Shown here: in pieces, positions 25,635 to 63,770 of the stretch
Layout: each line of letters starts with the position of its first letter
Numbering within the stretch: position 1 is the stretch's first letter
Source: Chiloscyllium plagiosum
Taxonomy: Eukaryota
Reading direction: 5' to 3'
DNA length: 64,000 nucleotides
Assembly: GCF_004010195.1 (NCBI RefSeq)
Contig: NC_057749.1
Location: 12,031,282 to 12,095,281 of the forward strand
Made by a program: the position numbers and the translations under genes
The notes under the pieces: model-generated
Seen by the model: only the letters and a program-made list of their open reading frames with translations
Told to the model about the DNA's origin: nothing
The model's database searches: none

Positions 25635-25757
25635 TCCCCACTCCGGCCTATCACCCTCACCTTAACCTCCTTCCACCTATCACATTTCCAACGCCCCTCC
25701 CCCAAGTCCCTCCTCCCTACCTTTTATCTTAGCCTGCTGGACACACTTTCCTCATTC

Positions 25758-29147: not shown

Positions 29148-31295
29148 CATAGAATATAAAACATAGGAAAGTGCAACACAGAACAGGCCCTTTGGCCCAC
29201 GATGTTGTGCCGAGGATTAATCCTAATGTAAAATAAAATAACTTAACCTACGCACCCCTCAATTCACTGCTATCCATGTGCATGTCCAGCAGTCGCTTAA
29301 ATGTCCCTAATGACTCTGCTTCCACCACCCCCGCTGGCAACACATTCCATGCATTCACAACTCTCTGCGTAAAGAACCTTCCTTTGACGTTCCCTCTCAA
29401 CCTTTCGCCTAATATCTTAAAACTATGACCCCTTGTGCCAGTCAATCCTGCCCTGGGGAAAAGTCTCTGGCTATTGACTCTATCCACGCCTCTCATTATC
29501 TTATATACCTCGATCAGTTCACCTCCATTCCTCCTCCTCTCCAGAAAAGAAAGTCCGAGCTTAGTCAACCTCTCCTAATAAGGCAAGCCTTTCTATCCAC
29601 GCCTCTCATTATCTTATATACCTCGATCAGGTCACCTCCATTCCTCCTCCTCTCCAGAAAAGAAAGTCCGAGCTTAGTCAACCTCTCCTAATAAGACAAG
29701 CCTTCCAGTCCGGGCAGCATCCTGGTAAATCTTCTTCGCACCCTCTCCACAGCCTCTGTATCTTTCCTATAGTAGGACGACCAGAAGTGGACACAATATT
29801 CCAAGTGTGGTCTCACCAGGGACTTGCAGAGCTGCAGCAAAACCTTGCGGCTCTTAAACTCGATCCCCTTGTTAATGAAAGCCAAACACCATATGCTTTC
29901 TTAACAACCCTATCCATTTGGGTAGCAACTTTGAGGGATCATGTACTCGAACGCCAAGATCCCTCTGTTCCTCCACACTGCCAAAACTCCTGTCTTTAAT
30001 CCTATATTCAGCATTCGAGTTCGACCTTCCAAAATGCATCACTTCGCATTTATCCAGTTTGAACTCCATCTGCCATTTCTCAGCCCAGCTCTGCATCCTG
30101 TCTATGTCCTGCTGCAACCTGCAATAGCCTTCGATACTATCAATGGCACCTCCAACCTTTGTGTCATCGCAAATTTACTAACTCACTCCTCAACCTCCTC
30201 ATCCAAGTCATTTATAAAAACTACAAACAGCAGAGGCCCAAAAACACAGCCCTGCGAGACACCACTCAACACTGACCTCCAGGCAGAATATTTCCACCTA
30301 CAACCACTCTCTGCCTTCTGTCAGCCAACCAATTCTGAATCCAGATAGCCAAATCTCCCTGTTTCCCATACTTCCTGACTTTATGAATGAGCCTACCATG
30401 GGGAACTTTATCAAATGCCTTGCTGAAGTCCACATACACCACATCCACTTCTTGACCTGTCTTTTCACCTCCTCAAAGAGTTCAGTCAGATTTGTGAGGC
30501 ATGACCTGCCCCTCTCAAAGTAATGTTGACTGCCTTTAATCACACTATGCTTTTCCAAATAGTCATAAATCCTATCTCTCAGAATTCTTTCCAAAACGTT
30601 GCTGACCACAGACGTAAAACTGACTGGTCTGTAATTGCCAAGGATTTCCCTATGACCCTTCTTGAAAGAGGAACAACATTCGCCTTCTTCCAATCCTCTG
30701 GTACAACTCCCGTTGAGAGTGAGGAGGCAAATATCCTCACCAGCGGATTATCAACGTCCTTTCTCACTTCCCGGAGCAGCCTAGGATAAATCTGGTCTGG
30801 CCCTGAGGACTTGTGAACCTTAAAGTTCGCCGAAATTTCCAGCACATCAACTTCATCAATCTTGATCTGGTTAAGCCTGTATTCTAGCTCCTCAATGTTC
30901 TCATTCACAACAAGGTCCCTTTCCTTAGTGAAAAACCGAAGCAAAAAACTCATTTAGGGCTTCCCCTATTTGCTCAGTCTCCACGCGCACATTCCCTACA
31001 CTATCCCTGATCATTCTCTTATTCTTCATGTATAAGCAAAATGCCATTGGGTTCTCCCTAATCATTCTTGCCAAGCCTTTTCTTGTGCCCCCTCCTGGTG
31101 CTCCTCAGTCCATTCCTGAGCTCCTTTCCAGCAAGCTTGTAATCTTCTAAAGCTGTGCCAGATCCTTGCTTCCTCCACCTTAGATAAGCTGCCTTCTTCC
31201 TTTAGACGAGAAGCTCCTCTGTTCTCGTCATCCAAGGTTCGTTAATCTTACCCCTTACCTGTCTCAGAGGAACAAATTTGTGCATCACATGTTTG
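29148..31295 (-). mobile_element. CR1 LINE ORF2 (RT and C-terminus), decayed, with a 113-bp internal tandem duplication
   Basis: KSSGPDQIYPRLLRE, NYRPVSFTSVV, DFSKAFDKVPH, LVRPHLEYCVHFWS and TRGHSFK. Confidence 0.92.
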
Positions 31296-33145
31296 AAATT
31301 ATCAGCATTCAATTTCTTTTTTTTCTTGGTCCTCTTATTTATTTGACAAAAGTCTAACAAAAAGCCAGGATATGCACAAAACATTTCCTGTCTTCGTGTT
31401 ATTTTGTACTTCCAGGATCACAAAGTTTGATCATTGCAACACAGTCAATTATTTGCAATTCCTTCACTATTACAGCATAAATACTTTGAAACAGAAAAGC
31501 ATTTTGCAAAGGATTTAGTCCAGTGGGTTGAGCATTCAGTTTCTATCAAGTTGATGCAGAACGGGAGCTTGAATCTTAATAGAGTGGGATTAGGTAGTAA
31601 TGATGGTCATAAAGAGCAATAATCCATGGTAAAAGGGCTTTCACTGCTCACAAGTGAAAATCTTGTTTTGATGTCTGGAGCTTAGCAAGAGATGCAATCT
31701 TTTGACTCACTATCAAGAAAAGACTTCCTGCACATTTCTCCCAATTCCCCAACATATATCTTTCCATAGCCCACACCATTCAGATCTGAGAAGATTCCAC
31801 ATTATGTAATGACTATCATAAAATCCTATTAGATACACTAATATCCTTTAGCCGTAACCATTTAGGGAAGAACATCTGCCTTCCTTCTTGGCTTGGTCTA
31901 CATGTGACTCCAGAACCACAGCTATGTGGTCAACAGTCCTCTGCAATGCCTGATCAGTTCTAGGACAATTAAGCATTGTTAGCAATACCCCCATCCCATG
32001 AAATAACAAAAGAAAAGGCTATTTGTGCCACATTTCACATCATATTCCTCTTTCTAGAGTTAATCTTATTACCCTGATTCAGAACAATTGGGCAATTGAG
32101 ATAATTGAATATTTTATTCACTGTATCGCAATATCCAGAATTACAGAGTTTGCTCTTGTCTGGCTTGCTATCCCTGTGTTGTAACACTACCAAACATCTG
32201 TGGTTTTACAGAAATCTCTGTGATTCATAAAATAAATATTAGAACTGCTTTAATTTACTATGTGACAATTATTATTGCAAAATTCAAGTTATGAACAAAA
32301 GGAGGTGTACTGGAAGTTAAGGAGGGAGTGAGTAAAGGCTAACTGCATTGTGTGCTTACTTTCTGGTATCAAACCCAGCAATTGTCATCATGTAGTAAGG
32401 TTTCACTTATTGTATTCTAAGTTGCCAAGAGATTTAGTAAGGTGACCAGTTCACTGCCCTCAACATTAATGAACCTGTTTAAAATTATAACAACCTGTTA
32501 ATTTTGGCCATTTGTTCCTGAGGCAGCCTTTAAATTAGCAGGTTATTAAATTACATTTGACTGCTTGACAGCAAAAGTGGTTTCTAATCTATGGCAAAAA
32601 ACTTGAACTGCTTTAAGAGGCCATCTGTTGGCAGTGGATTTGTCCTTACCTCTGGACTGAAAGACCCAGTTTCAAGTCCCAACTGCACTAGAGGTATGTA
32701 GTAACATCTTTAAACAGGTTAATTAGAAAACAAAAATCCACATTAGGGTTGAATTGCTATAAATGCCGGATTTGTAGGATTGCATTAAAATGGTAATAAA
32801 GGGAGAAGGAGAAACAAAATATCAGTGATATAAGATAGTCTTTGGAGCTTTTTTTGAAATTAAAAGAGCATCTCTCATTTCCAGCTTGAAAAGTAGATAT
32901 TGAATTTGAGCAAGGGATGAGGAGTAAATCAGGGGGGTGGGTGGGAGTGTAGGGGGAAGCATAAGTTGCATGCTGCAAAGTAACAGCTAGATTACTAAGC
33001 TATAGTGGGTTGAAGCTATGGACACTAAATTATTTGCTAGAGGATAAGGACCCACTGGAGCTAGGCAAAGACAAAATGGCATGGGTTGGCTCTTTCTGAA
33101 TATTTGTGGAGCAAAGTGAGGAATGACTGATAAGGATTCTGGTGA

Positions 33146-33347
33146 GCTGAAAATGTGTTGGAAAAACACAGCAGGTCAGGCAGCATCCAAGGAGCAGGAG
33201 AATCGACGTTTCGGGCATGAGCCCTTCTTCAGGAATCCCCAAAACGTTGATTCTCCTGCTCCTTGGATGCTGCCTGACCTGCTGCGCTTTTCCAGCAACA
33301 CATTTTCAGCTCTGATCTTCAGCATCTGCAGTCCTCACTTTCTCCTC
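33146..33347. mobile_element. Fold-back PLE-terminal element (family A) with hammerhead
   Basis: Perfect 14-bp TSD aaggattctggtga (33132-33145, 33348-33361). Inverted arms meet at about 33237. Confidence 0.9.
33205..33232 (-). ncRNA. Minimal hammerhead ribozyme motif (family A)
   Basis: CTGAAGA-A-GGGC-TCAT-GCCC-GAA-ACGT-C on the minus strand. Confidence 0.78.
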
Positions 33348-35404
33348 AAGGATTCTGGTGAACCTTTTCCTTCCTATTGGCAGCATATAAAAGGGAGGCA
33401 AACTCTTGTGGGAGCAGCCATTTTCGAGAGGGGTTGTGAGATTGAAATGTTGCTGTTGGAGCCAAAATGCAGGCTTTGGTAAGCATTGGGCTTTGCCGTG
33501 GAAGGTGAGGAGCATTAAGGTATGCTAAAGTAAGGTCTGTCTTTTTCTTTCAATCTGCTAGATACTAGAGTACTGATTGTAGTTAGTGTACTGGTAGGCT
33601 CCTCCTTAGAGATGTGGGAGATCAGGGAGAAATTAAATGTCCTTGACAACTATATTTGCAAGAGGTGTCTATGCAGCTCCTCTCAGGCTGCATGGATCGG
33701 TTGGAGCTGCAGTCAGACTAACTAAAGAGCATACAGGAGGCAGAAAGTTTTAGAGATATGAGTTTCAGGGATGTGGTCACACCAAAAGTTCAGACATATG
33801 GGTGACTGCCAGGAGGGGCAGGCAGTGCAGTATACCACTTTGGATACATTTTGGCAAGGCAGGAATGCAGATGTAGAATGGCCTCAGGAGAAAGCAGCCA
33901 GATCACTGGCGTCACTACAGGCTCTGTTGTACAGCAGGGAGGCTGGAAGAGTAGGTGAGCAGTAGTGACAAATAGGTGTTTCTGTGACTACAAGCTAGAC
34001 TCCAAACTGATACGTTGCTTCTCTGGAGCCAGGTCAAGGTGATGCGATTGGTCACAGGATGAAAGGGCAGGGTGAGCAGCTGAAGTTCATGGTCCATGTT
34101 GGTTCTAACATAGGCAGGAAGGGAGATCAGGTCCTGCAAAGGGAATTTAGGGAGTTAAGGAATAAGTTGAAAAGCTGATCCTCGATTGTTGTAATCTCAG
34201 GATTAGTCTCTGCGCCATATGCTAGTGATGCCAGAAATAAGATAACGTAGTTGAATGTGTGGCCAAAGACTTGGGAGTAGGAGGGAGGGCTTCAGATATC
34301 TGGATAACTAGGATCCATCTAGGGCAGGAGGGCCCTTTACAAGAAGGATGGTTTGCACTTAAAATGAAAAGCCACCAATATCCTTATAGGGAGGTAAGGC
34401 AGATGAGTTTAGAGCCTGGATTAGTACATGGGATTACAATATTGTAGCCATGACAAAAACTTAGTTGAAAGAAGGGACTGGCAGCACAATGATCCAGTGT
34501 TTAGGTGTTTCAGACTTGATGGAGAGGGCTGTAAAAGGAGGGGAGGAAATAGTTGCATTCCTGATTAAAGAGGATGTCACAACTGTACTAAGTGGACATT
34601 TGGAGAGCTCATTCAGCAAGGTCATACGGTTAGAACTTGGGGACAAGAAAGGTGCAATTATTATGATGGGGTTATGCTGCAGGCCTCTCAATAGTCAGGA
34701 GGAGATAGAGGAGCAGACACATAGGCAAATCATGTAAAAACAACAGGATTGTTGTAGTGGATGATTTTAATTTAGCCAGTATTGACTGGGACACTGGAGA
34801 AATTAAATCGGAGGCAGCTGTTTCAGGGTAAATCCACATTTGCTATATAGGAATCTGATCAACTAGTCTTTAAGAGTTCAGGACCAGCATGTTCCTGTGA
34901 GGATGAAAGATAAGGATGGCAAGATTCAGGAGCTCTGAATAACAAGCGATATTGAAAGATTTTTCAAAAAGGAAACATATAATGCTTAGTAAATTGAAAT
35001 CAGACAAGATCCTTGAAGAATATAGAGGAAACAGGAAAGAACTTAAACAAGGAATTAGGATGGGTAAAAGGGACCATGAGATATTCTTGGCAAACTGAGA
35101 TAAGTAAAATCCCAAAGCATTTCATAGGTATATAAGGAATAAGAGGGTAAAAAGGGAAGAGGTTGGTCCACTCAAGGACAGAGGAGAGAATTTATGCATG
35201 GAGCCAGAGGCAGTGGTTGAGGTCCTTAATGGTTACTTTGTTAGTATTCATTGAGGAGCAGGACATGGATGATGGTTAGATTTGGGTGGGGTATGTTGAT
35301 ATTAAGGTGGTGGTGTTAGGTGTTTTGAAAATATTATGGTAAATAAATCCTCAGGGTCTGATGGTATTCATCTCAGGATACTGAAGGCGGCAAGGAAGGA
35401 GATT

Positions 35405-43166: not shown

Positions 43167-43495
43167 TGGGCGGCACGGTGACACAGTGGCTAGCACTGCT
43201 GCCTCACAGCGCCTGAGACCTGGGTTCAACTCCTGCCTCAGGCGACTGACTGTGTGGAGTTTGCACGTTCTCCCCGTGTCTGCGTGGGTTTCCTCCGGGT
43301 GCTCCGGTTTCCTCCCACAGTCCAAAGATGTGCAGGGTCAGGTGAATTGGCCATACTAAATTGCCCGCAGTGTTAGGTAAGGGGTAAATGTAGGGGTATG
43401 GGTGGGTTTCGCTTCGGCGGGACTGTGTGGACTTGTTGGGCCGAAGGGCCTGTTTCCACACTAATATAATCTAAAAAAAAATCTAATAATCTAAT
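43167..43495 (+). mobile_element. HE1-type V-SINE
   Basis: Near-identical to 18470-18787. Confidence 0.9.
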
Positions 43496-44088
43496 AAACC
43501 GGTTAATGTTCAAGGCCCGCCTCTTGAGATTTTCTTCAATAGTTGAAGACTGAATGACTGTCTTTGGCATTAAGATTACATTTGACTGAATATGGCTTCA
43601 AGGAACCCAAGCAAAACTGGAGTCAAGGGGATAGAGGGGAAAACTTTCTGCCAGATGGAGTCATACTGAGCATAAAGAAATATGGTTATAGTTGTTTAAG
43701 GTCAATCATAGAACATCACTGCAGGAGGTTCTCATGATGGTGTCCTAAAGATCTAACATTTTCAACTGCTTTTATTAATAATCCACCCTCCATCGTAAGA
43801 TTAGAGGTAGGGATTTTTAATTAATTATCATACAACATTCAGAACCATTCTGAACTCCTCAGATACTGAAGCAGTTTATTCAATTCAGCAAGATCTGGAT
43901 AATGTCTAGGCCTGGGTCATAAGTAACAAATAACATTTGTGTCAGACATACTAGACAATGACCATCTCCAACGAGAAAGCATTCAACCATCACCCCTTGT
44001 CATTAACATTTGTAATATTCCTTAGTAAGTAAGTACCTGATGCAGAGTCTGAATTCTTCTGAATGCTGAACATTTAGAGCTTTCAGTC

Positions 44089-44309
44089 AAAGTGTGGTGC
44101 TGGAAAAGCACAGCTGGTCAGGCAGCATCCAAGAAGCAGGAGAGTCAGCGTTTTGGTCGTACGCTCTTCCTCAGGAATGTGATGAAGAGTTTATGCTCGA
44201 AACGTCAGCTGTCTTGCTCCTCGGATGCTGCCTGGCTGGCTGTGCTTTTCCACTGCTGTACTTTTTGACTGATTTTCAGCATCTGCAGTCCTCACTTTCT
44301 CCTATTTGA
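44089..44309. mobile_element. Fold-back PLE-terminal element (family A variant) with two hammerhead remnants
   Basis: 11-bp TSD agctttcagtc (44078-44088, 44310-44320). Plus-strand gtgatga-a-gagt-ttat-gctc-gaaacgtc at 44179-44206. Confidence 0.85.
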
Positions 44310-45611
44310 AGCTTTCAGTCTAGTACTGAGTTCCTGAGTCTCAGCATAATATTACATTCAGGACATTACTGTCAATAGAACTATGAGGACAATTAATTTC
44401 ACAACCCAGTGAAATATTACGGGCCACATGTTTTCAGTTTCATAGTAAAGTAACATGGAACACCATGCTTGAATGGAGCAGAAATTGATAAAGTAACCCA
44501 GTATTTGCATTGTAATACCAGCAATTTCTTGTGAATGGTCCAGGAGAACTTAATTCTGATCATCTTCTCAGGATCATGATGTCCATTAACAAATGTGCAT
44601 AAAGTGAACAAGTTGCACCAGAAGGCAACATACACTAGGCACTTACTCAACCTTTCATTACAACAGAAGAATTTTTAGCTTCAGAAGACGACCTTTTGGA
44701 CTCATTTGTCCCTCTACCATATACAAACACTAATTTCTCTAATCTCCATTCTTTAGAAACGTAACTAGTGCTGCTAATTAAACAATTTATCACATTCAAA
44801 AAAAATCTTTTTTTATGATTCCCTTCCTGTCCTAAAATTTCTGTGGGATTATCAAGTTTGTTTTGAACTTTGTTTAATCTTTTCTCCATAGCGAACACAT
44901 TTCCTCAACTTTAAATTGTTGCCCAGAATCTTCTATGTTTACTTTATATTCTTACGAAGGCAATTATTAAAATGATTGTTAAATTCTTGGCCTCAGAGTA
45001 TCTAAACACATAATAAATACAGTACACAGCAACAATACATCCAGCTGACCCCTGCTTATGGGAACAGTTCTGTATTCCATCTCTGATGTAGTACTATGCA
45101 TACATCAACAGAGAGCACCATTGAGCTTTATGAAAGAAACTAGTAAGCAGTCAAAAAAACTTCAGCACTGGGTTCTGAATTGTTACTATGCAAAAACTTG
45201 ATTTCCATTAAGAAAATAATTTTCACTTTTTAAAAAAATCTGCAGCACTCAGCAATCTTTGAGCAGTAACTTGTATTCATGTACATGTTGCAAAGCTCTT
45301 CACTGGAACATATTCCTACATAAATTAATAAATTGATACTTAGCTACATAAGCCCCAAACATTCTCCCTTGTGACCCCATTTCAAGACTCAAAAATCATT
45401 GTGACCTCTGAAAACAGAGTGTGGAAGGACAGCTATACAGCTGTCACATCTTGCTCAGAGCTTGATGCGGTTTCAGTACTGGCAACTCTACTGAGTCAAG
45501 TTTGGACATAAAGAATTTTATTGGAAGAGCTGACCAAAAATCTGGTCATGGTTTAAATCAATATTTTACAATCCAAGAGTGAGGGAACTTCAGAACTTAG
45601 CACCCAAGAAA

Positions 45612-45926
45612 GATTAGATTCCTTCCAGTATGGGAACAGGCCCTAAAGCCCAACAAGTCCACACCGACCTTCCGGAGAGTAATCCACCCAGACCTATTCC
45701 CCTATGTTTACCCTTGACTAATGCACCTATAGGCAATTTAGCATGTCCAATTCACCTGACTTGCACATCTTTGGGTTGAGGGAGGAAACTGAAGAATCCA
45801 GAGGAAACCCATGCAGAGACGGGGAGAATGTACAAACTCCACCAAAAATAGTTACCTGTTTTGAATTGAACTCAGGACCCTGATACTGTGAGGCAGCAGT
45901 GTTAACAACTGAGCCACGGTGCCACC
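45612..45926 (-). mobile_element. HE1-type V-SINE (older)
   Basis: Reverse complement of the SINE head, V-domain and tail. Confidence 0.85.
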
Positions 45927-48169: not shown

Positions 48170-51035
48170 TACATAACATAGAACATTACAGCGCAGTGCA
48201 GACCCTTTGGCCCTCAATGCTGTGCTGACCTGTGGAACCAATCTGAAACTCATCTATCCTACACTATTCAATTTTCATCCAGATGTTTATCCAATGGTGA
48301 TTTTAATGCCCTTCAAATTGGCGAGTCTACTATTGTTGGAGGCAGGACATTTCACATCTCTGCTACTACCCTGAGTAAAGAAACTATCTCTGACATCCTA
48401 CATCTATCAATCCTCAATTTAAAGCTATGTCCTCTCATGTTAGCCATCACTATCTGAGGACTCTCATTTTCCAACCTATCTAACCCTCAATTATTAATTT
48501 TAACAGAATCCCTACAATGTGGAAACAAGCCACTTGGCCCAGCAAGTCCACACCAACCCTCCAAAGAGTAACCCACCCAGACCCATTCCCCTACCCTATT
48601 ATTCTACATTTCCCCTGACTAATGCATCTAACCTACACATCCCTGAACATTATGGGCAATTTAGCATGTCCAATTCACCTGACCTGCACATCTTTGGACT
48701 GCGGGAGGGAACTGGAGGAAACCCAGGCAGTCATTGGGAGAATGTGCAAACTCCACACAGACAGTCGCCCGAGGCTGGAATCAAACCTGGGTCCCTGGCA
48801 CTGTGAGGCAGCAGTGCTAACCACTGAGCCACTATGCCACCCCAAATTATATGTCTCAATTAAGTCACCTCTCAACATTCTTCTCTCAAATGAAAACAGT
48901 CTCAAGTTCCTCAGCCTTTCCTCCATACCAGACAACATCCTAGTAAATCTCCTCTGAACCCTTTCCAAAGCTTCCACATCCTTCCTATAATTCGGTGACC
49001 AAAACTGTATGCAATACCTTGAGTGCAGCCGCACCAGAGTTTTGTGGTAAACTACTAGTAACTGAATTCGAGAATGAGCATTTTCAATCAACCACCACCC
49101 TGTCTTCTTTCAGCTAGCCAATTTCTGATCCAAACTGTTAAATCTTCCTCAATCCTATGTCTCCGTATTTTGTGCAGTAGCTACCGTGGGGAACCTTATC
49201 AAACGCCTTACTGAAATCCATATACGCCACATCAACTGCTTTACCTTCATCTACCTGTTTTGTCACCTTCTCAAAGAACTCTCGAATAAGGTTAGTTAGG
49301 CATAACCTACCCTTCACAAAACCATACTGACCATCTCTAATCAAATTATTCCTTTCTAGATGATTATAAATCCTACCGCTTATAACCTTTTCCAACACTT
49401 TACCAAAGTAAGACTCACTTGTTTATAATTATCAGGGTGGTCTCTACTCCCCTTCTTGAACAAGGGGATAACATTTGCTATCTTCCAGTCTTCTGGCACT
49501 ATTCCTGTAGACATTGATTACAGAAAGATCAAAGCCAAAAAGGCTCTGCAATCTCCTTCCTGGCTTCCCAGATAAATCTCATCAGGCCCAGTGGACTTTA
49601 CCTATTTTCACACTTTACAGAATTGCTAACATCGCCTCCTTATGAACCTCAATCCCATCTAGTCTAGTAACCTGTATTTCAGTATTCTCCTTGACATCAT
49701 CATATTTTTCCTGTGTGAATACAGTGAAAAATATTCATTAAGCTCTTCTATCTCCTCAGACTCCATGCACAATTTCCCACTACTATCCTTGATTGGCCCT
49801 AATCTTTCTCTAGTCATTCTTTTATTTCTGATATACCTATAGAAAGCTTTAGGGTTTGACCTTGATCCCACCTGTCAATGACTTCTCCTGTCGCCTCCTG
49901 GCTCTTCCTAGCTCTTTCTTTAGGTCCTTCCTGGCTAACTTATAACTCTCAAGCACTCGAACTGATCCTTCACATCTCATCCTAACATAAACCTTCTTCT
50001 TTCTCTTTACAAGATATTCAACTTCTTTAGTAAATCACAGCTCCCTTGCTCGAGCACTTACTTCCTGCCTGACAGCTACATACTTATCGAGGACACACAG
50101 TAGCTGTTCCTTGAGTAAGCTCCACATTTCAATTGTGCCCATCCCCTGCAGTTTCTTTCCCCATCCTAAATCTTGCATGATCACATCATGATTGCCTTTT
50201 CCCCAGCTATAACTCTTGCCCTGCATTATATACCTATCTCTTTCAATAGCTAAAGTAAGCATAACTGAATTGTGGTCACTATCACCAAAGTGCTCACCTA
50301 CCTCCAAATCTAACACCTGACTCGGTTCATTACCCAGTACCAAATCCAATGTGGCCTCGCCCCTTGTTGGCTTGTCTACATACTGGATCAGGAAACCATC
50401 CTGCACACATTGAACAAAAACTGAGCCATCTAAAAGTACCTGAACTATAGTATTTCCAGTCAATATTTGAAAAGTTAATGTCCCCCAAAACAACTACCCT
50501 ATTACTCTTGCTCCTATTCCAGAATCACTTTTGTTATCCTTTCCTCTACATGTCTGGAGCTATTAGGAGGCCAATTAAAACTCCCAACAGGGTGACCTCT
50601 CCTTTCCTGTTTCTAACCTCAGCCCATACTACCTCAGTAGACAAATCATCAAACATTCTTTCTGCTACTGTAATACTGTCCTTGATTAACAATGCCACAT
50701 CTCCCCCTCTGATACCATCTTCTCTGTTCTTACTAAAACATCTAAATCCTAACAACCATTACTGTCCTTGCTCTATCCATGTCTCTGAAATGGCCACAAC
50801 CAATCGACAACCAAGGTACCAACCCATGCTGCAAGTTCACCCACCTTACTGCAGATGGTCCTGGAGTTGAAGTAGACAGACTTCAAACCACCTTCCTTCA
50901 TGCCGGTGAACTCCTGCGACCTTGAAACCATTTTCTGACCTCACTACTCTCACCCTCCTGGATATCGGAACTATAATTTAGGTTCCCATTCCTCTGATGA
51001 ATTAGTTTAAACTCTCCCGAAGAGCATCAGCAAAT
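48170..51035 (-). mobile_element. CR1 LINE ORF2 (APE to 3' tail), decayed, with SINE insertion
   Basis: PTRGEATLDLVLGNEP, NPKAFYRYIRNKR, DFSKAFDKVPHG. Tail at 48170. Confidence 0.92.
48503..48843 (-). mobile_element. HE1-type V-SINE nested in CR1
   Basis: Reverse complement of the SINE head, V-domain and tail. Confidence 0.88.
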
Positions 51036-53875: not shown

Positions 53876-55246
53876 TTAAATAGACCTGTTTCCTCTTTCC
53901 CTGCGCTGAAGCTCTTCTTTGTAACAGTAAGAGCAGTAAAATTCTGTCTCCGGACTGCCGTAGAAGGGGCAGTTGTGCTGTTTGCATCGGTTTTGTTGTA
54001 GGAAATAGGGAGGAGCCGCCATAATTCGCCCTTTGGTTTGCTCTCCACTTTGCCACACCGAGGAAACACCCTCGTCTGCATATTCCAAGTAGCCATTAAC
54101 ATCGCTTGGACCAAATCCATTGGTAAATGTGTGGCTTTTATGTTCAGGGGGCAGCAAATGCTTCAGAGGTTCCATGGTTTCTACAGTAGGAAATCTTGAA
54201 AGACCCACAGGACAGTAATTTTGATAAGACAGTGAGTGACTATGCTGCGGATATGTTGCGCATGTTTTCAGGGAGCCAATGACAGGTGGCTGAATGTCAA
54301 TTGGGCAGTTTGATGATGGAGGTTTAATCTCAGACACATGGATGACATGCCGCAACAAAGCTGGCGTGTGTGTAAAGTGGGCAGAGGTGAGTGTGCCGGT
54401 CTTAGGGATTTCATTTCTGAGGGGTGAATTGGTCTCTGTTGCTTGACCACTCCTTCTTTGTGTTTTTGAGTTCATCAAATCCATATGGCTTTGAGAAGAA
54501 CCTTGTAGAGTGTCCACCTGAGGATTTGGTTCCACCTTGCTTCTCTCAGATGGTTCATGTTCCATCTTTTTACATGTGGAGTTACTGGAAGCTTTTTTCT
54601 CTGCCTCTTTGCGTTTTTGCTCCTGCTCTGCATTGAAGCGTTCCTGAGCAGTAGACAAGTAATAATTAATCATTTCCTCGTGAAACTGATGCCTATGGCT
54701 AGTCAACAGAAGTCCAGCAAAAATGAACTTCCTCTCTCCTTGCATAGCAGCTCTCAATATGCTGAGGCTGAGTTTGACATCAGTGCTGTACTTGCACTGA
54801 TCAGCTGGTTTATCCGTTGGAACTTTAACAGAGGTAATATTTGACTTGTCAGTAGGTGATGAACTTGATTGCAATGACTCATCTTTACTCCCTTTATTAG
54901 ATTTATTGGATTCTTTTTTCTTGCCTTTCTCCACATTCTCCCCATTGCGCCCATTGCTTGAATTTCCTTTGCTGATTCTTCCATGTACTAATCCTCCGAA
55001 TCCTCCCATGTTCTTCTTTATTTTAGTCCCCAGGGTTTTACTAAAACTCCCGAGTTTGTTTGCAACAGAGTCTGTCCTGTTCTTTTCCTTCTTTTGTTTA
55101 TCTCCTTTATCTTTCTCTTTCTGGTTTTTGTGTCCATTCAGATTAGAGTTGCTGCAGATGGAGTCTCTGTCTGACTCGGAGTCAGACAGTGAATGGGCAT
55201 CTTCCCCTACTGAACCAGTTGGTGATTCTGGCTGGGCCAAAGGTGC
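53876..55246 (-). CDS. OTUD7A: OTU deubiquitinase 7A (Cezanne-2), last coding exon with A20-type zinc finger
   Basis: Acceptor AG at 55248-55247, phase 0. APLAQPESPT..DSVANKLGSFSKTLG..KYSTDVKLSLSILRAAMQGERKFIFAGLLLTSHRHQFHEEMI..RCKQHNCPFYGSPETEFYCSYCYKEEL..*. Confidence 0.95.
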   Translation of the reverse strand, partial: APLAQPESPTGSVGEDAHSLSDSESDRDSICSNSNLNGHKNQKEKDKGDKQKKEKNRTDSVANKLGSFSKTLGTKIKKNMGGFGGLVHGRISKGNSSNGRNGENVEKGKKKESNKSNKGSKDESLQSSSSPTDKSNITSVKVPTDKPADQCKYSTDVKLSLSILRAAMQGERKFIFAGLLLTSHRHQFHEEMINYYLSTAQERFNAEQEQKRKEAEKKASSNSTCKKMEHEPSERSKVEPNPQVDTLQGSSQSHMDLMNSKTQRRSGQATETNSPLRNEIPKTGTLTSAHFTHTPALLRHVIHVSEIKPPSSNCPIDIQPPVIGSLKTCATYPQHSHSLSYQNYCPVGLSRFPTVETMEPLKHLLPPEHKSHTFTNGFGPSDVNGYLEYADEGVSSVWQSGEQTKGRIMAAPPYFLQQNRCKQHNCPFYGSPETEFYCSYCYKEELQRRERGNRSI

Positions 55247-55997
55247 CTGTGAGTACAAACAATTCATAACTAGCCTAATAAAATTTATAGTATTATACAA
55301 AACTATTAGAATATAACAAAGTATTTTATATTAAAACCTGACTGCTGTAATAGTTTTGTCTTGCAGTATTATCCAGTGCCTCACCCAAATTACATGTAAG
55401 ACAATAAGCGGCATATGGAGGTTTGACCATAGACAGACTCAACCGTGAAACTCGGCATCTATACACAGACAGTCTAATAGAAACCAGTAGTGAATAATCA
55501 GCAGATAATTTCTTTCCTTTAGTCGAAGGGTTTTGAGACCAATTGTGAAATGCCAACCAAATATGTAGCGGAATTGAGCTAATTAAACACAAATAGGTCA
55601 ACTGAACCTGTGATCTTCCTATTTTGCATAGCTCATGTACTTCAAATCACATTGCTAACAGCAATAACATAAATTAAGTAGATTTAAAGCAAACAGCCTG
55701 GAAACCCCACTATGCAAGATGGCACAAATACCAAATACAAACATAGCAAGGTCTTTTTTTCATTTTTTGGAGCTATTAATTCACTCATAATAAATAGGAT
55801 AACACTACTATTGAAAACAGACATGGTTTTACAATTAATATACATGTTTTCACAATGGTATTGCTCAGGGAATTTGGAAAAAAATATGCATTTTTATAAT
55901 CTCTGTTGTATAGCATCATTGAAGTTATACTTTACAAGTCACATAAATCACAGCAGAAAATATTGCCCTTGCACTTTAAAAGCAGGAAATACTTTAC

Positions 55998-56082: not shown

Positions 56083-56249
56083 CTGGAAGAAAATAATGCA
56101 TGGTGACAAAACATCTACACATGGACAAAAGGTAAGGCACCAACTGTGATAACTCTAACAATCCAAATGTGAATTGACATTAGATCAAACTATTCAATTA
56201 TTACTCACTCAATTCGCGCAAGTCTTCAGAAAAAGACTGTGGTCAGCAG

Positions 56250-56605
56250 ACTGGCTTAATAGTTAGCACTGCTGCCTCTCAGAACTAGGGACAGAGGTTG
56301 GTTCCAGCCTCCGGTGACTGAGTGGAGTTTGCATGTTCTCCCCGTCTGCCTAGGTTTCTGCTAGGTGCTCTGGATTCCTCTCACAGTCCAATCATATGGT
56401 TAGGATTGACCATGCTAAATGCAGGTTTAGGGAGATAGGGTAGGACTGAAAAATGTGTTGCTGGAAAAGCGCAGCAAGTCAGGCAGCATCCAAGGAGCAG
56501 GAGAATCGACATTTCGGGCATAAGCCCTACTTCAAGGGTAGGGTCTGGGTCTGGCTGCAGACTAGATAGGCCAAATGGCCTCTTTCCGCACTGTAGAGAG
56601 TTTAT
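56250..56605 (+). mobile_element. Degenerate V-SINE in OTUD7A intron, with a PLE-terminal insertion
   Basis: gttagcactgctgcctc..gtggagtttgcatgttctccc..ggccaaatggcctctttcc. Confidence 0.75.
56445..56534 (-). mobile_element. 90-bp PLE-terminal element with mutated hammerhead
   Basis: TSD agggtagg (56437-56444, 56535-56542). Minus strand tgaagt-a-gggc-ttat-gccc-gaaatgtc. Confidence 0.82.
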
Positions 56606-58144: not shown

Positions 58145-60850
58145 AGAAAACAAGCAGAATTTATACAACATCTTTTGCAACTCCAGATGTCACAACACAT
58201 TAAAAAACTAGCTCATTGCCTGTAAAGAAAAAATAGATTTTTAAATACTACAACAAATACAAAACAATGCAATTCAAAACAGTACAAAAATAGTACAAAA
58301 CTAAACCCAAATAATAAAAAAAATCTCCAACCCACTCTCCTATACAAATGTATAAACATATATAGAGAAGTATAAAATTTTAAAAAAACCTAAACTAGCT
58401 ATTGAACTAAATAAATAAATACCTAACAACAAACAAATAAATAGTAATAACTCAGCCCAGCCAAACAAAACACTCATACATTCACAGTTCCTCCTCCCTG
58501 GATATTGGACTCATGAAACACAATCGTTACGACTTTATAAAAGCCCTTGTTAGTGTGGCAGATAAATCTGTGTCCAGGTATTTCAAAAAGGGTTGCCATG
58601 TCTTGTAAAAATTCTCAGTTTTGTGGTGTACCATATTTGTGAGAAAATCCAGGGAAATATGCTCCATAACAATCTTCCGCCAACCCGACAGGCCTGGGGG
58701 GTTTTCGGATATCCAACCTAGCAAGATATTCTTCCTTGCACAGAATGTAAGAATGTTGAAAAGTTTTGCCTTATGCGCGTCTGCAGGAAATACAATGGTA
58801 GGCCCAAAAGGAGCGAAATAGGGTCCTTCCCCACCCCTACACCTAAAATCCTCTCCACTGCACCCACCACAGCGCTCCAATAGGTTTGAAGCCTGTCACA
58901 AGACCAAAGACAATGGTTAAGAGTGCCCATGCAGATTTGGGATATGCTGAAGATATTTAAATTTTAACAAACGGTCTGGGGCTAAGTGGACCCTGAGGAG
59001 AATCTTCAACTGTAAAGCATGGGTCCTATTGCAAATTGATATCTTCCTTGCATTCTCCCAAATATCCTCCCATGCCTCTGAAGAAACTTCAACGCCCAAC
59101 TCTCTCTCGCACATCTTGCAGAGTCGATCAGACTCATCTGAGGTGGGACCCCCCAATTGGTGATATAAAGTACTGACAGAGAGTGTACTCTTAGCCCTTA
59201 ATACCCCTCTTTCTATGTCAGATTGTAGGGATCAGTCAAAAGTGTGGTCTTTTTTTGAATAAAATCCCTAACTTGAAAAAAACAAAAGAGGTCTCTATTA
59301 GATAACTCGTACTTCCGTACTAACTGATTGAAGGACATCATTACGTTTCCCTCAAATAAATCACTCATGCAAGTATTACTCCGAGCTGCCCGACGTTTAA
59401 ATCCTGAATCTATCATACACGGTTGAAAACCCGGCATACCCACTAAAGGTGTAAACAAAGATGTTTTGCCAATATTACCTTCCCTCTGCCAAATTGCCCT
59501 CCTTGCTTTAACAGTATTGATGACTATTGGATTATGGCAATATTCCCCAACTATCCTCACCTTGTCCAAAAACAGCAAACTGGTAAGGGGGCACCTTGCC
59601 TGGGAGGATTCGATATCTAGCCATACTGAAAGAGGGTCCCCACAAACCCAATCATTCACGTAGGTCAAAAGCGAGCTTAATTGGTAATTTTTAATGCCCG
59701 GAAGGTCTACTCCCCCCAATTTGTGAGGCAACTGCAGTTTGGCTAATTTAATGAAGGGCCGTTTACGGTGCCAGATAAAGGAGCTGAACCAACCATTCAG
59801 TCTCCTGAGTGTTTGTTTATTGAAAATCAGGGGGAGCATCCGTATAGGGTATAGCAAACGAGGGAGAATATTCATCTTAATAAGCACTATCCGACCCAAC
59901 CACTAGACTGGAAGTGCCTCCCATCTTTGGAGATCTTGTTTAATTATTTCAAATAATTGAGTAAAATTGGCTTTGAACAGGCAAACCAGAACTGGAGTAA
60001 TGAATATGCCCAAATACACAAAACTCCCCTGTGACCACCTAAATGGGAATCTATAGTCACTCTCAAGAGGCAACTCTTTCGTAAGACCTACCCATAGGCA
60101 TAGCCTCTGATTTAGCAAAATTAATATTATACCCTGAAAAAGCACCAAACGCGTGAATGCATTGTATCAGGCAAGGCACTGAGACTGCTGGATTCGTCAA
60201 GAAAATTAGAACATCGTCTGCATACAGCGAGATCTTATGTAATTTTGACCCCACTTCTGGAGCTGATATATTGAGATCCCCACAAACGTCCTCTGCCAAC
60301 AGTTCAATCACCAACGTAAAAAGTAATGGTGAAAGGGGACAGCCCTGCCGGCTGCCCCTAGAAATATTAAAATTGCTTGATTGTACCCCATTGGTAATGA
60401 CTGCCGCGAGAGGTACACTGTAGAGAATCTTTACCCATCTTATGAAAACTTTGCCCAGACCAAACCGGTCTAGAGGTTCCCAGACCTTTCCCTAATCACT
60501 GTAATGATTTGTGCGGCACTTCTCTTTCTGGCAAGGTATGCTAAGAATGAGCTAGTTTTGAAGTACCGAGATAGTTAAAATGCCTGAAACATGGCTTCCA
60601 ATTTGTCTCACAAATACAATATAACGCTGAGCAGATAATTTGTTTTTAAGTAGTGTTAATTGAGGAATTAATATTGTGTCAGGCCATTGGAAAGAGCTCC
60701 ATGACTCTTCTTGGAATAGTCCCATGTGCTATTTTCCAGGGCAGATAAGACCTTAGTTTAAATCATTCCACCAGGCAATACATTTGATAGTACAGGTACA
60801 ACACTCTTGAGTCCCACATTGGAGTGTCCTCAATTCCCTGCTGTGGGGCA
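58145..60850 (-). mobile_element. DeuSINE split by an L1 (head/core about 60546-60850, tail about 58145-58205)
   Basis: Minus strand ..aaactaaggtcttatctgccc..actattccaagaagag..aaacaaattatctgctca.. and tail gacatctggagttgcaaaagatgttgtataaat. Confidence 0.55.
58225..60475 (-). mobile_element. L1-clade LINE, 5'-truncated ORF2 (RT YADD to CCHC region), frameshifted
   Basis: GCPLSPLLF, KISLYADDVLIFL, FVYLGIFIT, GRIVLIKMNILPRLLYP, GTLNHCLWSC. Confidence 0.92.
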
Positions 60851-61362
60851 TGAACCCATGACGTTCTGATGTCGTGACAAGAATACCACCTACTGAAGAA
60901 GCCTGACACCTTGGTACATTCTGAAATACTGAATAAATACACAGACAGTACTTTGAGGAAGGTCCAGTGCCATATGGTGATAACAGCACATGCACAGTTG
61001 AAATGTTCCTCATTTAGACTGCAAGGCCTCAGACAACCACACATCACTTTTTATAAAATCTTTTGTTAAATTGGCAATCACTTGTCAATGGATATGATTG
61101 TCCGCCTACGAAATTCCATGTCATTGGTCATAGGTTCTGTGGATGATGAGCCCGATCCTGTGGCTACATTTCCATCCACACATTTGCAGGTGTTTTTGGA
61201 AGGTTGAAGTGCTTTTGGCTTTAAGATCGACATTCATTTTTCCAGTCCCTTTTCCGTACTTCCACTTGCTGACAGGATTTGGAGATGTCTGTGTTGGACT
61301 GGAGTGTATAAAGTTAAAAATCATACAATATCAGGTTATAGTTGAACAGGTTTACTTGGAAG

Positions 61363-61397
61363 CACTAGCTTTCGGAGCGCTGCTCCTTCATCAGGTG
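61363..61397 (-). ncRNA. Minimal hammerhead ribozyme motif (family B), intact
   Basis: CAC-CTGATGA-A-GGAGC-AGC-GCTCC-GAA-AGCT-A-GTG: helix I CAC/GTG, 5-bp helix II, palindrome AGCT. Confidence 0.85.
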
Positions 61398-61774
61398 GTT
61401 ATGGAGTATAAGATTGTAAGACACAGAATTTATAGCAAAAGTTTAGTGTGATGCAACTGAAATATATTGAAAAAGATCTGGATTGTTTGTTAAGTCTCTC
61501 ACCTTTTAGAGTGACCATGTCAGTTTTAGTTCTTTCATATGTAAATCACAAAGTTTTTTTAAAAGTTACATTCTCAAGTGAACTTTAACACTTAGTGTCA
61601 TGTTGGCCCAGACAATGCACTGAAGGTGTTAGCTCCCTGTCTGAGGCTGTCTGTGCCACAATGGTCAGACTGATTCTAAACTAAAAAACGGATTTACAGA
61701 ATCTTACATGGATTCATGCAGTTTTTGAGCAAAGTAAGATGTAATTCTGCAAGTACAAATTCACTCCAAAACAT

Positions 61775-61776
<2 letters not shown>

Positions 61777-61819
<43 letters not shown>

Positions 61820-61826
61820 CGCGCGC
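61777..61826. repeat. (GT)17(GC)8 microsatellite
   Basis: Read directly from the sequence. Confidence 0.95.
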
Positions 61827-62486
61827 GGGAGGGGAATAGGAGTGTCTGTGAGAGTGTGTGCGTGTGTAAAGGGGTGTAAGTCTGTGAGAGGGTGTGCGTG
61901 GGAATGTATGTATGTGTGAGCGTATGAGAAACATTCTACATGAGTGTCTGTGTCTGTTGGAGAGCAAGGATGTGTGTGTGTGTAGGTAGAAGTGTCTGTG
62001 TCTATAGACAGACAGACACTCACACATACAGTGTACACTGCCACAGACACCCTCTCACAGACTTATACCCCTTTACACTCACACACTCATAACCACCTCC
62101 CCCTGTCCCACGCACACACCCACATGCACATATACATATTTAAGTTTGTGGGGTGAATTTGTATTTTAAGAACTAAATTTTACTTTGCTGAAAAACCGCA
62201 TGAATCCATGTAAGATTCTATACATTTTTTGGATGAGAATCAGTCTGACAATTGGTGGCACAGACAAGCTCACACAGGGAAACTCACACCTTTAATACAT
62301 TATCTGGGCCGACATGACACCAATTGTTAAAGTTCACTTGAAAATGTAACTTCTAAAAAAGACATTTTGCAATTTACATATTAAAGAACTGAAACCGACA
62401 TGATCATTCTAAAAGATGAGAGACTTAACAAACAACCCAGGTCTTTTTCAATATATAATTTCAGTTACATCACACTATAAACTTTT

Positions 62487-62798
62487 GCGGCACAGTGGCT
62501 CAGTGGTTAGCACTGCTGCCTTGCAGCGCCAGGGACACCGGTTCGATTCCAGCCTCGGGCGACTGTTTGCGTGGAGTTTGCATGTTTACCCTGTGCCTGC
62601 GTGGGTTTCCTCCAGGTGCTCCAGTTTCCTCCCACAGTCCAAAGATGTGTTGGTCAGGTGAATTGGCCATGCTAAATTGTCCATAGTGATAAGTGCATTA
62701 GTAGGCAGTAGGTGCGTGGGTTACTCTGAGGGTTGGTGTAGACTTGTTGGGCCAAAGGGCCTGTTTCCGCACTATAGGAAACTAGTCTAATCTAAAAA
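62487..62798 (+). mobile_element. HE1-type V-SINE inserted in the right arm of the fold-back element
   Basis: gcggcacagtggctcagtggttagcactgctgcc..gtggagtttgcatg..gggccaaagggcctgtttcc. Confidence 0.88.
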
Positions 62799-62832
62799 AA
62801 CCTCCGAGTCTTATAGTCTTATTCTCCACAGC

Positions 62833-62867
62833 CACCTGATGGAGGAGCAGTGCTCTGAAAGCTAGTG
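62833..62867 (+). ncRNA. Hammerhead motif (family B) with one core substitution
   Basis: CAC-CTGATGG-A-GGAGC-AGT-GCTCT-GAA-AGCT-A-GTG. Confidence 0.7.
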
Positions 62868-62939
62868 CTTCCAAATAAACTTGTTGGACTATAACCTGGT
62901 GCTGTGAGATTTTTAACTTTGTCGATAGGAGTTCTTGAA

Positions 62940-63770
62940 GAATTGTGACTCTTCATAACAGCAGCTTCTTCTGAGCAAGGATCTCCCATGCAATAACATC
63001 GGTGTTGGATTTCCCAAGAGAAGCCTTCAAAGAGACATTGAAAAGCTTTTGTTCTTCTCCAATTTGAGCGTGTCCCTTGAGCTGAGCAAAGATGATTTGC
63101 TTTGGCAGTCGGAACTCAAGCATCATAAGTACACGGCCAACTCAAAAGAGTTGGTTTTGGATGATCACAGCCTCGATCCTGGTACTGTTAGCTATTTCAA
63201 GGACAATCATGTTAGTATGCTTATCCTCTCAGCTGATGCAGAGAACCCATTTCAAACAGCTTTGGTGGTATTTCTCAAAAGATCTTGAGCTGGAATTTTT
63301 ATGTAACCAAAGTCTCGGGGCCATACAGAAGAGTCAAAGGATGACTGCCTGGAAAAAGGATCCTGGTATCAGCACAGATGTCACAGTCAAAGACTCTCAT
63401 TCTTGGGAGACTGAAGGCAGTGCTCACAGGTTGGATGTGATGTTGAATCTCAGCATCAATGTGAGCCTCAACCAAAAAGTAGCTTCCCAGGTAGGGGAAT
63501 TGCTCCATGTTTGGCAGGATTTCTCCATTCATCTTAAATAGAGGGACGGACTGGAAGTTGACCTGGGCTGGATTATTTAGGATTTGACTTCTTTGAGTTC
63601 AGACAGAAGCCAGTTCTCCAGTGTGTTGCTGCATAGGCATTAAGCAAGGCTTGAAGATTCTCTTCCAAGAGAACAGAGATGACATTGTTATCTACATACA
63701 GAAGTTTCACAAGCGAGGCCATGTCATTTTCCTCTTAGATTTCAGCCGGTTCAGTCCAAGATCATCTCTA
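62940..63770 (-). mobile_element. RTE-clade LINE remnant
   Basis: NGEILPNMEQFPYLGS..IDAEIQHHIQPVSTAF..TLLYGPET and LLYVDN remnants. Confidence 0.75.

What the first reader, a model, noticed from the sequence alone, without database searches (positions are those of the whole stretch)
61276..62920. 1.6-kb fold-back element with a hammerhead ribozyme near each end, in an OTUD7A intron
Seen: two diverged ~600-700 bp arms in inverted orientation with no coding capacity. Each arm carries a 35-nt hammerhead motif, intact on - (61363-61397) and with one substitution on + (62833-62867). A V-SINE later landed in the right arm. Known: PLE termini carry minimal hammerheads whose helix III is replaced by a 4-nt palindrome, proposed to cleave as dimers, and PLE insertions often have inverted terminal repeats. 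Inference: this is a non-autonomous, retrozyme-like PLE derivative. Transcription from either strand gives a long hairpin RNA with a ribozyme near its 3' end. It may be an undescribed shark family.
Basis: partly seen in the sequence, partly recalled or inferred. Interest (0 to 1): 0.85.

Follow-up and report, generated by a model that had tools for sequence, protein, structure and literature searches.

The report
Head-to-head Penelope-like retroelement ends
This is an old, decayed insertion of a Penelope-like jumping gene that landed as two mirror-image copies of its non-coding tail, each with a small hammerhead ribozyme motif near its outer end; this insertion pattern is already published, so the finding is real but ordinary.

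Summary
The inverted repeat is real. The arms are 61310-~62003 (sense on -) and ~62004-62920 (sense on +). They are 85.9% identical over 446 aligned unique bases and have no coding capacity. A SINE sits at 62481-62800 in the right arm. The left arm carries a motif that meets every sequence feature of the metazoan PLE minimal hammerhead. My strict descriptor found 3 hits in the window and 0 in 200 shuffles. The right-arm copy has three substitutions, not one, including core A9->G.

The 3' ends point outward and the 5' ends meet in the centre. This is the published pattern for Penelope-like elements (PLEs): an inverted 5'-truncated copy next to another copy. A second, unrelated PLE family in the same window shows this layout twice (33146-33347 and 44089-44304). 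Each of those pairs is bounded by one target-site duplication, so each arose in a single insertion event.

'Retrozyme-like' is not supported. There is no tandem repeat, the hammerhead is minimal rather than canonical, and the two ribozymes lie on opposite strands. In a transcript spanning both arms, the sense hammerhead is predicted to pair with its complement (35/35 and 32/35 nt), so it should not fold.

So I could not test copy number, a parent element or whether the family is already described.

The parts
61310..62003 (-). Left arm. The element's sense strand is the minus strand. The 3' end is at 61310 and the 5' end is in the centre. Layout: 56-nt tail, hammerhead, about 370 nt of unique body, then a CA-rich inner part.
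61363..61397 (-). Intact-looking PLE-type minimal hammerhead: helix I CAC/GUG, core CUGAUGA, bulged A, helix II GGAGC-AGC-GCUCC, GAAA, palindrome AGCU, A17. The predicted cut lies between 61366 and 61365, 56 nt from the arm's 3' end.
   Evidence: features as listed in PMC4209133
62004..62920 (+). Right arm. Sense is the plus strand, the 3' end is at 62920, and a SINE interrupts it.
62833..62867 (+). Decayed copy of the hammerhead, 32/35 identical to the left copy. Changes: core A9->G, loop II C->U, and C11.1->U, which turns G10.1-C11.1 into G.U.
62481..62800 (+). Later SINE insertion with an A-rich 3' end. It is absent from the matching site in the left arm (61423-61434).
61777..61827 (.). (GT)17.5 followed by (GC)8.5. 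This is a microsatellite expansion inside the CA-rich inner part of the left arm.
61997..62010 (.). Junction of the two 5' ends: a local palindrome centred on CTATAG.
61281..61309 (-). Candidate only: a 29-nt one-sided PLE 'tail'. This holds only if GACAGGATTT (61271-61280) and GATAGGAGTT (62924-62933) are a decayed target-site duplication (8/10 match). I estimate about 0.2 such matches by chance, so it is not significant.

Best explanation
This is one old, dead insertion of a Penelope-like retroelement (PLE) RNA that integrated as a 'twin'. Two copies of the same ~0.65-0.7 kb non-coding 3'-terminal module were joined head to head. Each copy has a minimal hammerhead 56 nt from its 3' end. The 3' ends abut the target DNA and the 5' ends meet in the middle.

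Inferred mechanism: the PLE RT/GIY-YIG protein cuts both target strands and primes reverse transcription from both 3'-OH ends. Each flank therefore receives a cDNA that begins at the RNA's 3' end, and the two cDNAs meet and are joined at their 5' ends.

Since insertion each arm has gained about 0.08 substitutions per site. The right hammerhead lost core A9, a SINE landed in the right arm, and microsatellites grew in the left arm.

The palindrome is a by-product of integration, not a mobile unit. It has no ribozyme function in its present context. Its likely present-day effect is that the host pre-mRNA contains a long imperfect intronic hairpin.

Shown: the anatomy, the motif features, the recurrence of the twin layout with single TSDs in this window, and the predicted sequestration of the ribozyme.

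Inferred: priming on both strands, single-event origin of this particular locus, and lack of function.
For: (1) Orientation. The hammerhead defines the sense strand, and on that basis both outer ends are 3' ends. Both arms stop at the same base after an identical-length 56-nt tail. The flanks themselves are not inverted repeats.

(2) The left motif meets all sequence features that Cervera & de la Pena list for metazoan PLE min-HHRs (PMC4209133). [quoted passage not shown] The descriptor gave 3 real hits and 0 in 200 shuffles.

(3) Published anatomy. [quoted passage not shown] 'Dual min-HHRs ... (~100-700 bp) but in opposite strands' were already seen in Schistosoma (PMC4209133).

(4) Published biochemistry. 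[quoted passage not shown]

(5) An in-window control. A second PLE family has a GIY-YIG ORF at 24675-25445 (Pfam E 7e-4, below the cut-off; the GIY-YIG-like motif is also visible by eye). Of its 7 loci here, 2 are head-to-head twins (33146-33347 and 44089-44304). Each twin is bounded by one TSD (14/14 and 14/16 matches; each string occurs only twice in the window). In each, one arm ends ~37-41 nt short of the other, which is the one-sided PLE 'tail'.

(6) There are no other copies of the arms in the 64 kb by blastn or nhmmer. The hammerhead is not better conserved than the rest: 32/35 for the hammerhead, 282/323 for the body and 44/53 for the tail. That is what neutral decay would give.
Against: - No target-site duplication could be shown for this locus. 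The best candidate is an 8/10 match and not significant.
- No parent PLE is known. The arms show no nucleotide similarity to the window's own PLE family and no endonuclease remnant. Yet they extend >=530 nt upstream of the hammerhead, whereas the in-window PLE has only ~150 nt between its ORF end and its hammerhead. So the template had either a long non-coding region or no ORF at all.
- The near-equal arm lengths are not predicted by two independent random 5' truncations.
- Rfam's hammerhead models do not match, even at E<=10. No cleavage assay exists.
- Whether the family recurs in the genome could not be examined.
Confidence: 0.68

Rival explanations
1. The ~0.69-kb arm is a complete, discrete non-autonomous PLE-dependent retroelement with its own RNA 5' end, as the first reader proposed (without the retrozyme part). 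The twin then arose because both cDNAs ran to the end of a short RNA. This agrees with the best explanation on mechanism but differs on what the template was.
For: - The arms are nearly equal in length and meet with little or no spacer.
- At least 530 nt upstream of the hammerhead is non-coding and has no endonuclease remnant.
- In the window's other PLE family, short units also have a fixed 5' end. All 5 short loci, 7 arms in total, start within ~30 nt at the hammerhead's 5' edge, and 6 of the 7 arms start within 9 nt. Its twins have equal 5' ends.
- Non-autonomous PLE derivatives are known (PMC8557442; preprint 10.64898/2026.07.22.740005).
Against: - Only one locus was seen. There is no second copy in 64 kb.
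- The inner ends lie in low-complexity CA-rich sequence, where alignment is loose and the left arm is ~80 nt longer.
- pLTR lengths vary among PLEs, so a long non-coding stretch does not exclude an autonomous parent.
Confidence: 0.3
2. The whole 1.6-kb palindrome is itself a recurring mobile fold-back family that moves as a unit.
For: Only that the structure is compact and symmetric.
Against: - A transcript of the palindrome folds on itself and hides both the hammerhead and the 3' end.
- The same layout in the other PLE family is clearly made anew at each insertion. Its two twins have different ages (arm identity 68/72 and 66/89) and different TSDs.
- There is no second copy in the window.
Confidence: 0.05
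3. Two independent insertions of the same family landed next to each other by chance, or a single copy was later duplicated in inverted form at the DNA level.
For: No TSD around the whole structure could be shown.
Against: - Both arms end at exactly the same element position, and the flanks are not inverted repeats. A DNA-level fold-back duplication would normally carry flanking DNA with it.
- A second insertion landing exactly at the 5' end of the first, in the opposite orientation and of nearly the same length, is improbable.
- Arm-to-arm divergence is uniform along the arms (80-91% per segment).
Confidence: 0.07
4. It is a DNA transposon or foldback-type element with very long terminal inverted repeats, and the hammerhead-like motif is there by chance.
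For: Long inverted repeats with no internal region resemble foldback elements (recalled, not tested).
Against: - The strict hammerhead descriptor gave 0 hits in 200 shuffles of the whole window.
- The motif sits where PLE hammerheads sit, near the 3' end.
- I saw no 2-10 bp TSD of a DNA-transposon type at the boundaries by eye.
- There are no subrepeats in the arms.
Confidence: 0.03

Closest known systems
Inverted / head-to-head 5'-truncated insertions of Penelope-like elements (Craig et al. 2021, PMC8557442, passages read; Evgen'ev & Arkhipova 2005, cited there, not read)
   Same: The 3' ends face outward and the 5' ends are joined. A hammerhead lies near each 3' end. The result is an inverted repeat made at integration. 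The same thing occurs twice in this window for another PLE family, each time inside a single TSD.
   Different: Both copies here are short and non-coding, so no ORF-bearing unit sits between or beside them. No TSD or one-sided tail could be shown for this locus.
Minimal type I hammerheads of metazoan PLEs (Cervera & de la Pena 2014, PMC4209133, main text parts 1-2 read)
   Same: All listed sequence features are met by the left copy. That paper already reports pairs of min-HHRs 100-700 bp apart on opposite strands, and many solo motifs from truncated PLEs.
   Different: The two motifs here are ~1.4 kb apart. Cartilaginous fishes are not named in the parts I read, and I did not open the supplements.
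Animal non-LTR retrozymes (Cervera & de la Pena 2020, PMC7229834, passages read; Li, Clavereau & Pollet 2026 preprint, abstract and Results part 1 read)
   Same: Non-coding, hammerhead-bearing, thought to depend on PLE machinery and to derive from pLTRs. Consensus lengths of 51-972 bp overlap the arm length.
   Different: Retrozymes are direct tandem repeats with canonical type I hammerheads and give circular RNAs. Here there is an inverted pair, a minimal hammerhead and no tandem, so excision between two ribozymes is impossible.
Two-strand priming by the Anolis Poseidon PLE protein, and its 'tail' signature (Frangieh et al. 2024, PMC11167929, passages read)
   Same: It gives a direct biochemical route to twin insertions, because both target strands are cleaved and extended. 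The two RT start sites explain the one-sided ~37-41-nt tail seen in the window's other PLE family.
   Different: That work did not reconstitute an inverted twin product, and I could not show a tail at the fold-back itself.
L1 twin-priming inversions, and intronic inverted Alu pairs as double-stranded RNA sources (both recalled, no call)
   Same: An inverted retroelement structure made in one integration event. Intronic inverted repeats fold into long dsRNA in the pre-mRNA.
   Different: L1 twin priming gives an inversion of one copy, not two copies of the 3' end.

Membership tests
Metazoan PLE minimal hammerhead (min-HHR) | Conserved core boxes CUGANGA ... GAAA, with H at position 17 | tested here: met
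   The left copy has CUGAUGA, GAAA and A17. The right copy fails, with CUGAUGG (A9->G).
Metazoan PLE minimal hammerhead (min-HHR) | [quoted passage not shown] | tested here: met
   An extra A precedes GGAGC in both arms. The feature is listed in PMC4209133.
Metazoan PLE minimal hammerhead (min-HHR) | G10.1-C11.1 pair closing a helix II longer than the canonical 4 bp, plus a short helix I | tested here: met
   Helix II is GGAGC/GCUCC (5 bp, loop AGC) and helix I is CAC/GUG (3 bp). The minimum-free-energy fold of the 35-mer forms both. In the right copy the 10.1-11.1 pair is G.U.
Metazoan PLE minimal hammerhead (min-HHR) | No helix III loop; positions 15.1-16.1 form a 4-nt palindrome that could pair between two molecules | tested here: met
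   AGCU follows GAA in both arms.
Metazoan PLE minimal hammerhead (min-HHR) | Self-cleavage, as a dimer | not testable with these tools
   This needs in vitro transcription. Published PLE min-HHRs cleave only weakly even as dimers.
Hammerhead families in Rfam | Match to a curated covariance model | tested here: not met
   No hammerhead hit at gathering score on the whole window or at E<=10 on 61200-63000. I expected this for a motif without helix III, so it does not count against the min-HHR reading.
Penelope-like element insertion | RT plus GIY-YIG endonuclease ORF | tested here: not met
   The arms have no ORF, no Pfam hit and no tblastn hit to the window's own PLE ORFs. The locus is therefore at most a non-coding fragment or derivative.
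Penelope-like element insertion | Hammerhead near the 3' end; 5'-truncated copies; an adjacent inverted copy forming an inverted repeat | tested here: met
   compared with the description in PMC8557442.
Penelope-like element insertion | Target-site duplication, and a 30-40-bp tail at one end only | tested here: inconclusive
   There is only a non-significant 8/10 candidate, which would imply a 29-nt tail. Both features are clear in the window's other PLE family.
Penelope-like element insertion | Sequence homology to the pLTR or 3' region of an autonomous PLE in the same genome | not testable with these tools
There is no similarity to the one PLE family present in the window.
Animal non-LTR retrozyme | Direct tandem repeats, each unit carrying a hammerhead | tested here: not met
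   The only direct or tandem repeats are microsatellites and one 8-nt duplication.
Animal non-LTR retrozyme | Canonical type I hammerhead with helix III and loop-loop contacts | tested here: not met
   The motif is the minimal kind and has no Rfam hit.
Animal non-LTR retrozyme | Expressed as small circular RNA | not testable with these tools
   No RNA data could be laid.
Foldback / long-TIR DNA transposon | Fixed-length TSD, subrepeated TIRs, transposase-encoding partner | tested here: inconclusive
   No TSD and no subrepeats were found. A partner cannot be searched for without the genome.

The most novel reading that the evidence does not exclude
The ~0.69-kb arm could be a complete, discrete, non-coding retroelement that parasitises PLE machinery, and an undescribed family in cartilaginous fishes. 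Its RNA would have a defined 5' end in a CA-rich leader and a minimal hammerhead 56 nt from its 3' end. The equal arm lengths would then mean that both cDNAs of a two-strand-primed integration ran off the same short RNA. The window's other PLE family behaves the same way: its 90-135-nt 'hammerhead + tail' units all start at the hammerhead's 5' edge, alone or as twins. Together these would point to a general rule that PLE RNAs with fixed 5' ends give symmetric twin insertions.
Probability: 0.3. Interest if true: 0.4.

Novelty: new member of a known kind. Interest (0 to 1): 0.2.

Why it matters
The finding matters little by itself. It is one decayed copy of a published insertion pattern (PLE inverted twin with minimal hammerheads), sitting in an intron.

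Its modest value has three parts:
- It gives a clean vertebrate example of the head-to-head product expected if PLE proteins prime on both target strands. Two younger, TSD-bounded examples lie in the same 64 kb.
- It shows that in such twins the ribozyme is expected to be locked in a long duplex. That argues against a ribozyme role for read-through transcripts.
- If the arm proves to be a discrete non-autonomous unit, it would add a cartilaginous-fish case to the link between PLEs and their non-coding dependants.

Tried and rejected
- Whole-genome search: none is held for this window.
Copy number, other junctions, orthologous loci and expression therefore stay untested.
- The look-up of sequencing runs: 20 of 24 listed rows hold part of the 2.4-kb stretch, and 3 hold half or more of its words. 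No RNA holder is listed. Organisms B, C and D hold small shares. None was laid, so none of this is evidence.
- Exact-pattern scans with two 22-nt strings conserved in both arms found 0 matches. These covered metagenome contigs, genome contigs and viral contigs. That was expected for vertebrate DNA.
- The search of earlier findings by sequence and by place returned nothing. The search by words returned rotifer, protist and moss PLE notes only.
- phmmer of the left-flank frame (61121-61309, -) against 1.84 billion proteins gave 4 hits. Only one (P0004) matched the window at all in tblastn, and only at the left flank; P0002, the one I printed, is a repeat protein, not a LINE. So the empty site could not be rebuilt. 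My reading that both flanks belong to one CR1-like LINE rests on a motif I recalled and on the frames.
- The Protein Atlas gave no usable hit for the 484-aa A20-finger frame. PDB gave only A20 fingers. 'OTUD7A' therefore stays unverified.
- Rfam hits at E<=10 in the region (mir-297, mir-466, SCARNA7, UnaL2 and others) are all far below their gathering scores. They lie on the GT/CA tract or are isolated, so I rejected them as chance.
- Thermodynamic cofolding cannot judge a 4-bp intermolecular helix III. It pairs the two helix II strands instead, so it is not informative about dimer activity.
- Lunse, Weinberg & Breaker (PMC5785218) is not held. I know it only from a review's text and reference list.

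Full report
**What is there.** The sequence and the repeat finder show one large inverted repeat. Collinear arm pairs run inward from 61310/62920 at 83-95% complementarity to a CA/GT-rich centre. A global alignment of the left arm's reverse complement with the right arm is collinear throughout, apart from a ~320-nt insert in the right arm (62481-~62800). That insert matches at least five other places in the window at 73-84% identity and is a SINE. Over the unique part the arms are 383/446 identical (85.9%), with 45 transitions and 18 transversions. If the arms were identical at birth, that is about 0.16 substitutions per site between them (my K2P calculation from those counts). The arms begin at 61310, not 61276. 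Nothing in them codes for protein. The only tandem repeats are (GT)17.5, (GC)8.5 and one 8-nt duplication.

**The hammerhead.** On the minus strand, 61363-61397 reads CAC-CUGAUGA-A-GGAGC-AGC-GCUCC-GAA-AGCU-A-GUG. Cervera & de la Pena (PMC4209133; I read parts 1-2 of the text) list the features that recur in metazoan PLE minimal hammerheads beyond their search descriptor. [quoted passage not shown] The left copy has all of them. A descriptor I wrote with those features finds three sites in the window and none in 200 dinucleotide shuffles. The other two sites belong to a different repeat family. The right-arm copy (62833-62867) differs at three positions, not one. They are core A9->G and two CpG->TpG changes, one of which turns G10.1-C11.1 into G.U. 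Rfam's hammerhead models do not match, even at E<=10. I take this as expected for a motif with no helix III, not as evidence against it. The hammerhead (32/35) is not clearly better conserved between arms than the body (282/323) or the tail (44/53), so I see no sign of selection since insertion.

**Orientation and meaning.** Taking the hammerhead strand as sense, both arms run from the centre outward. Both stop at the same base, 56 nt past the predicted cleavage site. The flanks are not inverted repeats. So the structure is two copies of one 3'-terminal module joined at their 5' ends. This is the published PLE pattern. Craig et al. [quoted passage not shown] Cervera & de la Pena already noted pairs of minimal hammerheads 100-700 bp apart on opposite strands. 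Frangieh et al. 2024 (PMC11167929, passages) found that a purified Anolis PLE protein cleaves and extends both target strands, unlike R2 and L1. They also found that reverse transcription starts at two adjacent internal sites, which explains the tail. Priming on both strands would place an element 3' end against each flank and leave the two 5' ends to be joined in the middle. That is the layout seen here. The step from that biochemistry to this locus is my inference.

**An internal control in the same window.** A second, unrelated hammerhead-bearing family is present ('family 2'). Two long copies, 24455-25869 (+) and ~15250-14162 (-), carry a frame with a GIY-YIG-like motif. Pfam scores it at E 7e-4, below the cut-off, and the motif is visible in the translation. 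So family 2 is a true PLE, with its hammerhead ~150 nt past the ORF end and 100-140 nt from the 3' end. Five further loci are short 'hammerhead + tail' pieces of 90-135 nt. Six of their seven arms begin within 9 nt at the hammerhead's 5' edge. Two of these five are head-to-head twins. The twin at 33146-33347 is bounded by AAGGATTCTGGTGA on both sides (14/14 identical). The twin at 44089-44304 is bounded by a 16-nt repeat (14/16 identical). Each string occurs only twice in the window. In both twins one arm ends ~37-41 nt short of the other, which is the one-sided tail. Their arm identities are 68/72 and 66/89, so they are separate events of different ages. In this genome, then, the twin layout is a recurrent, single-event product of PLE integration. 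The 1.6-kb fold-back is the same layout with longer arms.

'Retrozyme-like' fails on the defining features. Animal retrozymes are direct tandems of canonical type I hammerheads that yield circular RNAs (PMC7229834 passages; Li et al. 2026 preprint). Here there is no tandem and the motif is minimal. The two motifs are on opposite strands, so no transcript has two sense ribozymes. The hairpin RNA is predicted (MFE -892 and -839 kcal/mol, with 530 and 523 arm-to-arm pairs). Within it, however, the sense hammerhead is paired to the other arm at 35/35 (+) and 32/35 (-) positions. The ribozyme fold is therefore not expected to form in a read-through transcript. A frame ending in an A20 zinc finger at 53879-55330 (-) suggests the host gene is on the minus strand. 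If so, the pre-mRNA would contain the intact left hammerhead in sense, but locked in this duplex. The gene name OTUD7A was not verified (one search gave nothing).

**What stays open.** I could not show a TSD. One weak candidate (8/10 match) would imply a 29-nt tail at 61281-61309, but I expect ~0.2 such matches by chance. I could not find a parent element. The arms have >=530 nt of non-coding sequence upstream of the hammerhead and no endonuclease remnant, whereas family 2 has ~150 nt there. So the template either had a long non-coding region or was a non-autonomous RNA. The near-equal arm lengths favour a template with a fixed 5' end. But the inner ends lie in low-complexity sequence, and the left arm is ~80 nt longer. 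I put about 0.3 on a discrete non-autonomous unit. An attempt to rebuild the empty site from relatives of the flanking LINE failed.

**Verdict.** It is not retrozyme-like, and the palindrome is most likely a one-off integration product rather than a mobile unit. It is a new member of a known kind and of low interest.

Noticed in passing
window 24455-25869 (+) and ~15250-14162 (-): Two 5'-truncated copies of an autonomous Penelope-like element ('family 2'). They carry a GIY-YIG-like endonuclease frame and a minimal hammerhead (CUGAAGA-A-GGGC-UCAU-GCCC-GAA-ACGU-C) ~150 nt past the ORF end. An N gap at 25464-25634 interrupts the first copy.
   Followed up: partly
window 33146-33347 and 44089-44304: Two head-to-head twin insertions of the family-2 3' end. 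Each is bounded by one target-site duplication (33132-33145 / 33348-33361, 14/14; 44073-44088 / 44305-44320, 14/16). In each, one arm is ~37-41 nt shorter at its 3' end, which is the one-sided PLE 'tail'.
   Followed up: yes
window 2074-2163 (+), 28593-28464 (-), 56534-56446 (-), plus the twins above: The short family-2 units share a fixed 5' end at the hammerhead's 5' edge (6 of 7 arms within 9 nt). They use two alternative 3' ends ~37-45 nt apart. This suggests an RNA 5' end or a strong reverse-transcription stop just upstream of the hammerhead. It is unexplained.
   Followed up: partly
window 14270-14162 (-), 25772-25869 (+): An ATG in loop II of the family-2 hammerhead opens a frame (MPETSILLLLGCC...) that stays open to the unit's 3' end. 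This recalls the Anolis PLE, where the ORF begins at stem II of the hammerhead (PMC11167929). No full-length 5' region is in the window to test it.
   Followed up: no
window 53879-55330 (-): A 484-aa open frame ending in an A20-type zinc finger (Pfam E 1.5e-7). It is probably the last coding exon of the host gene on the minus strand. The OTUD7A name was not verified.
   Followed up: partly
window 62953-63734 (-), 61121-61309 (-), 58917-60491 (-): The fold-back sits among LINE remnants on the minus strand. A reverse-transcriptase-like frame lies to its right, a frame ending ...CGWKCSHRIGLIIHRTY lies to its left, and a separate RVT_1-positive LINE lies further left. My reading that the two immediate flanks are one CR1-like LINE split by the insertion rests on recall and could not be confirmed.
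   Followed up: partly
window 29479-29704: A 113-bp tandem duplication, 98% identical, inside a LINE reverse-transcriptase region.
   Followed up: no
window 18472-18782, 43170-43463, 48648-48838, 45611-45923, 56246-56420: Further copies of the SINE that interrupts the right arm, at 73-84% identity to it.
   Followed up: no
window 16596-16904 (+): A 103-aa frame with C2H2 zinc fingers (Pfam E 3e-14). It could be an exon or a pseudogene fragment.
   Followed up: no
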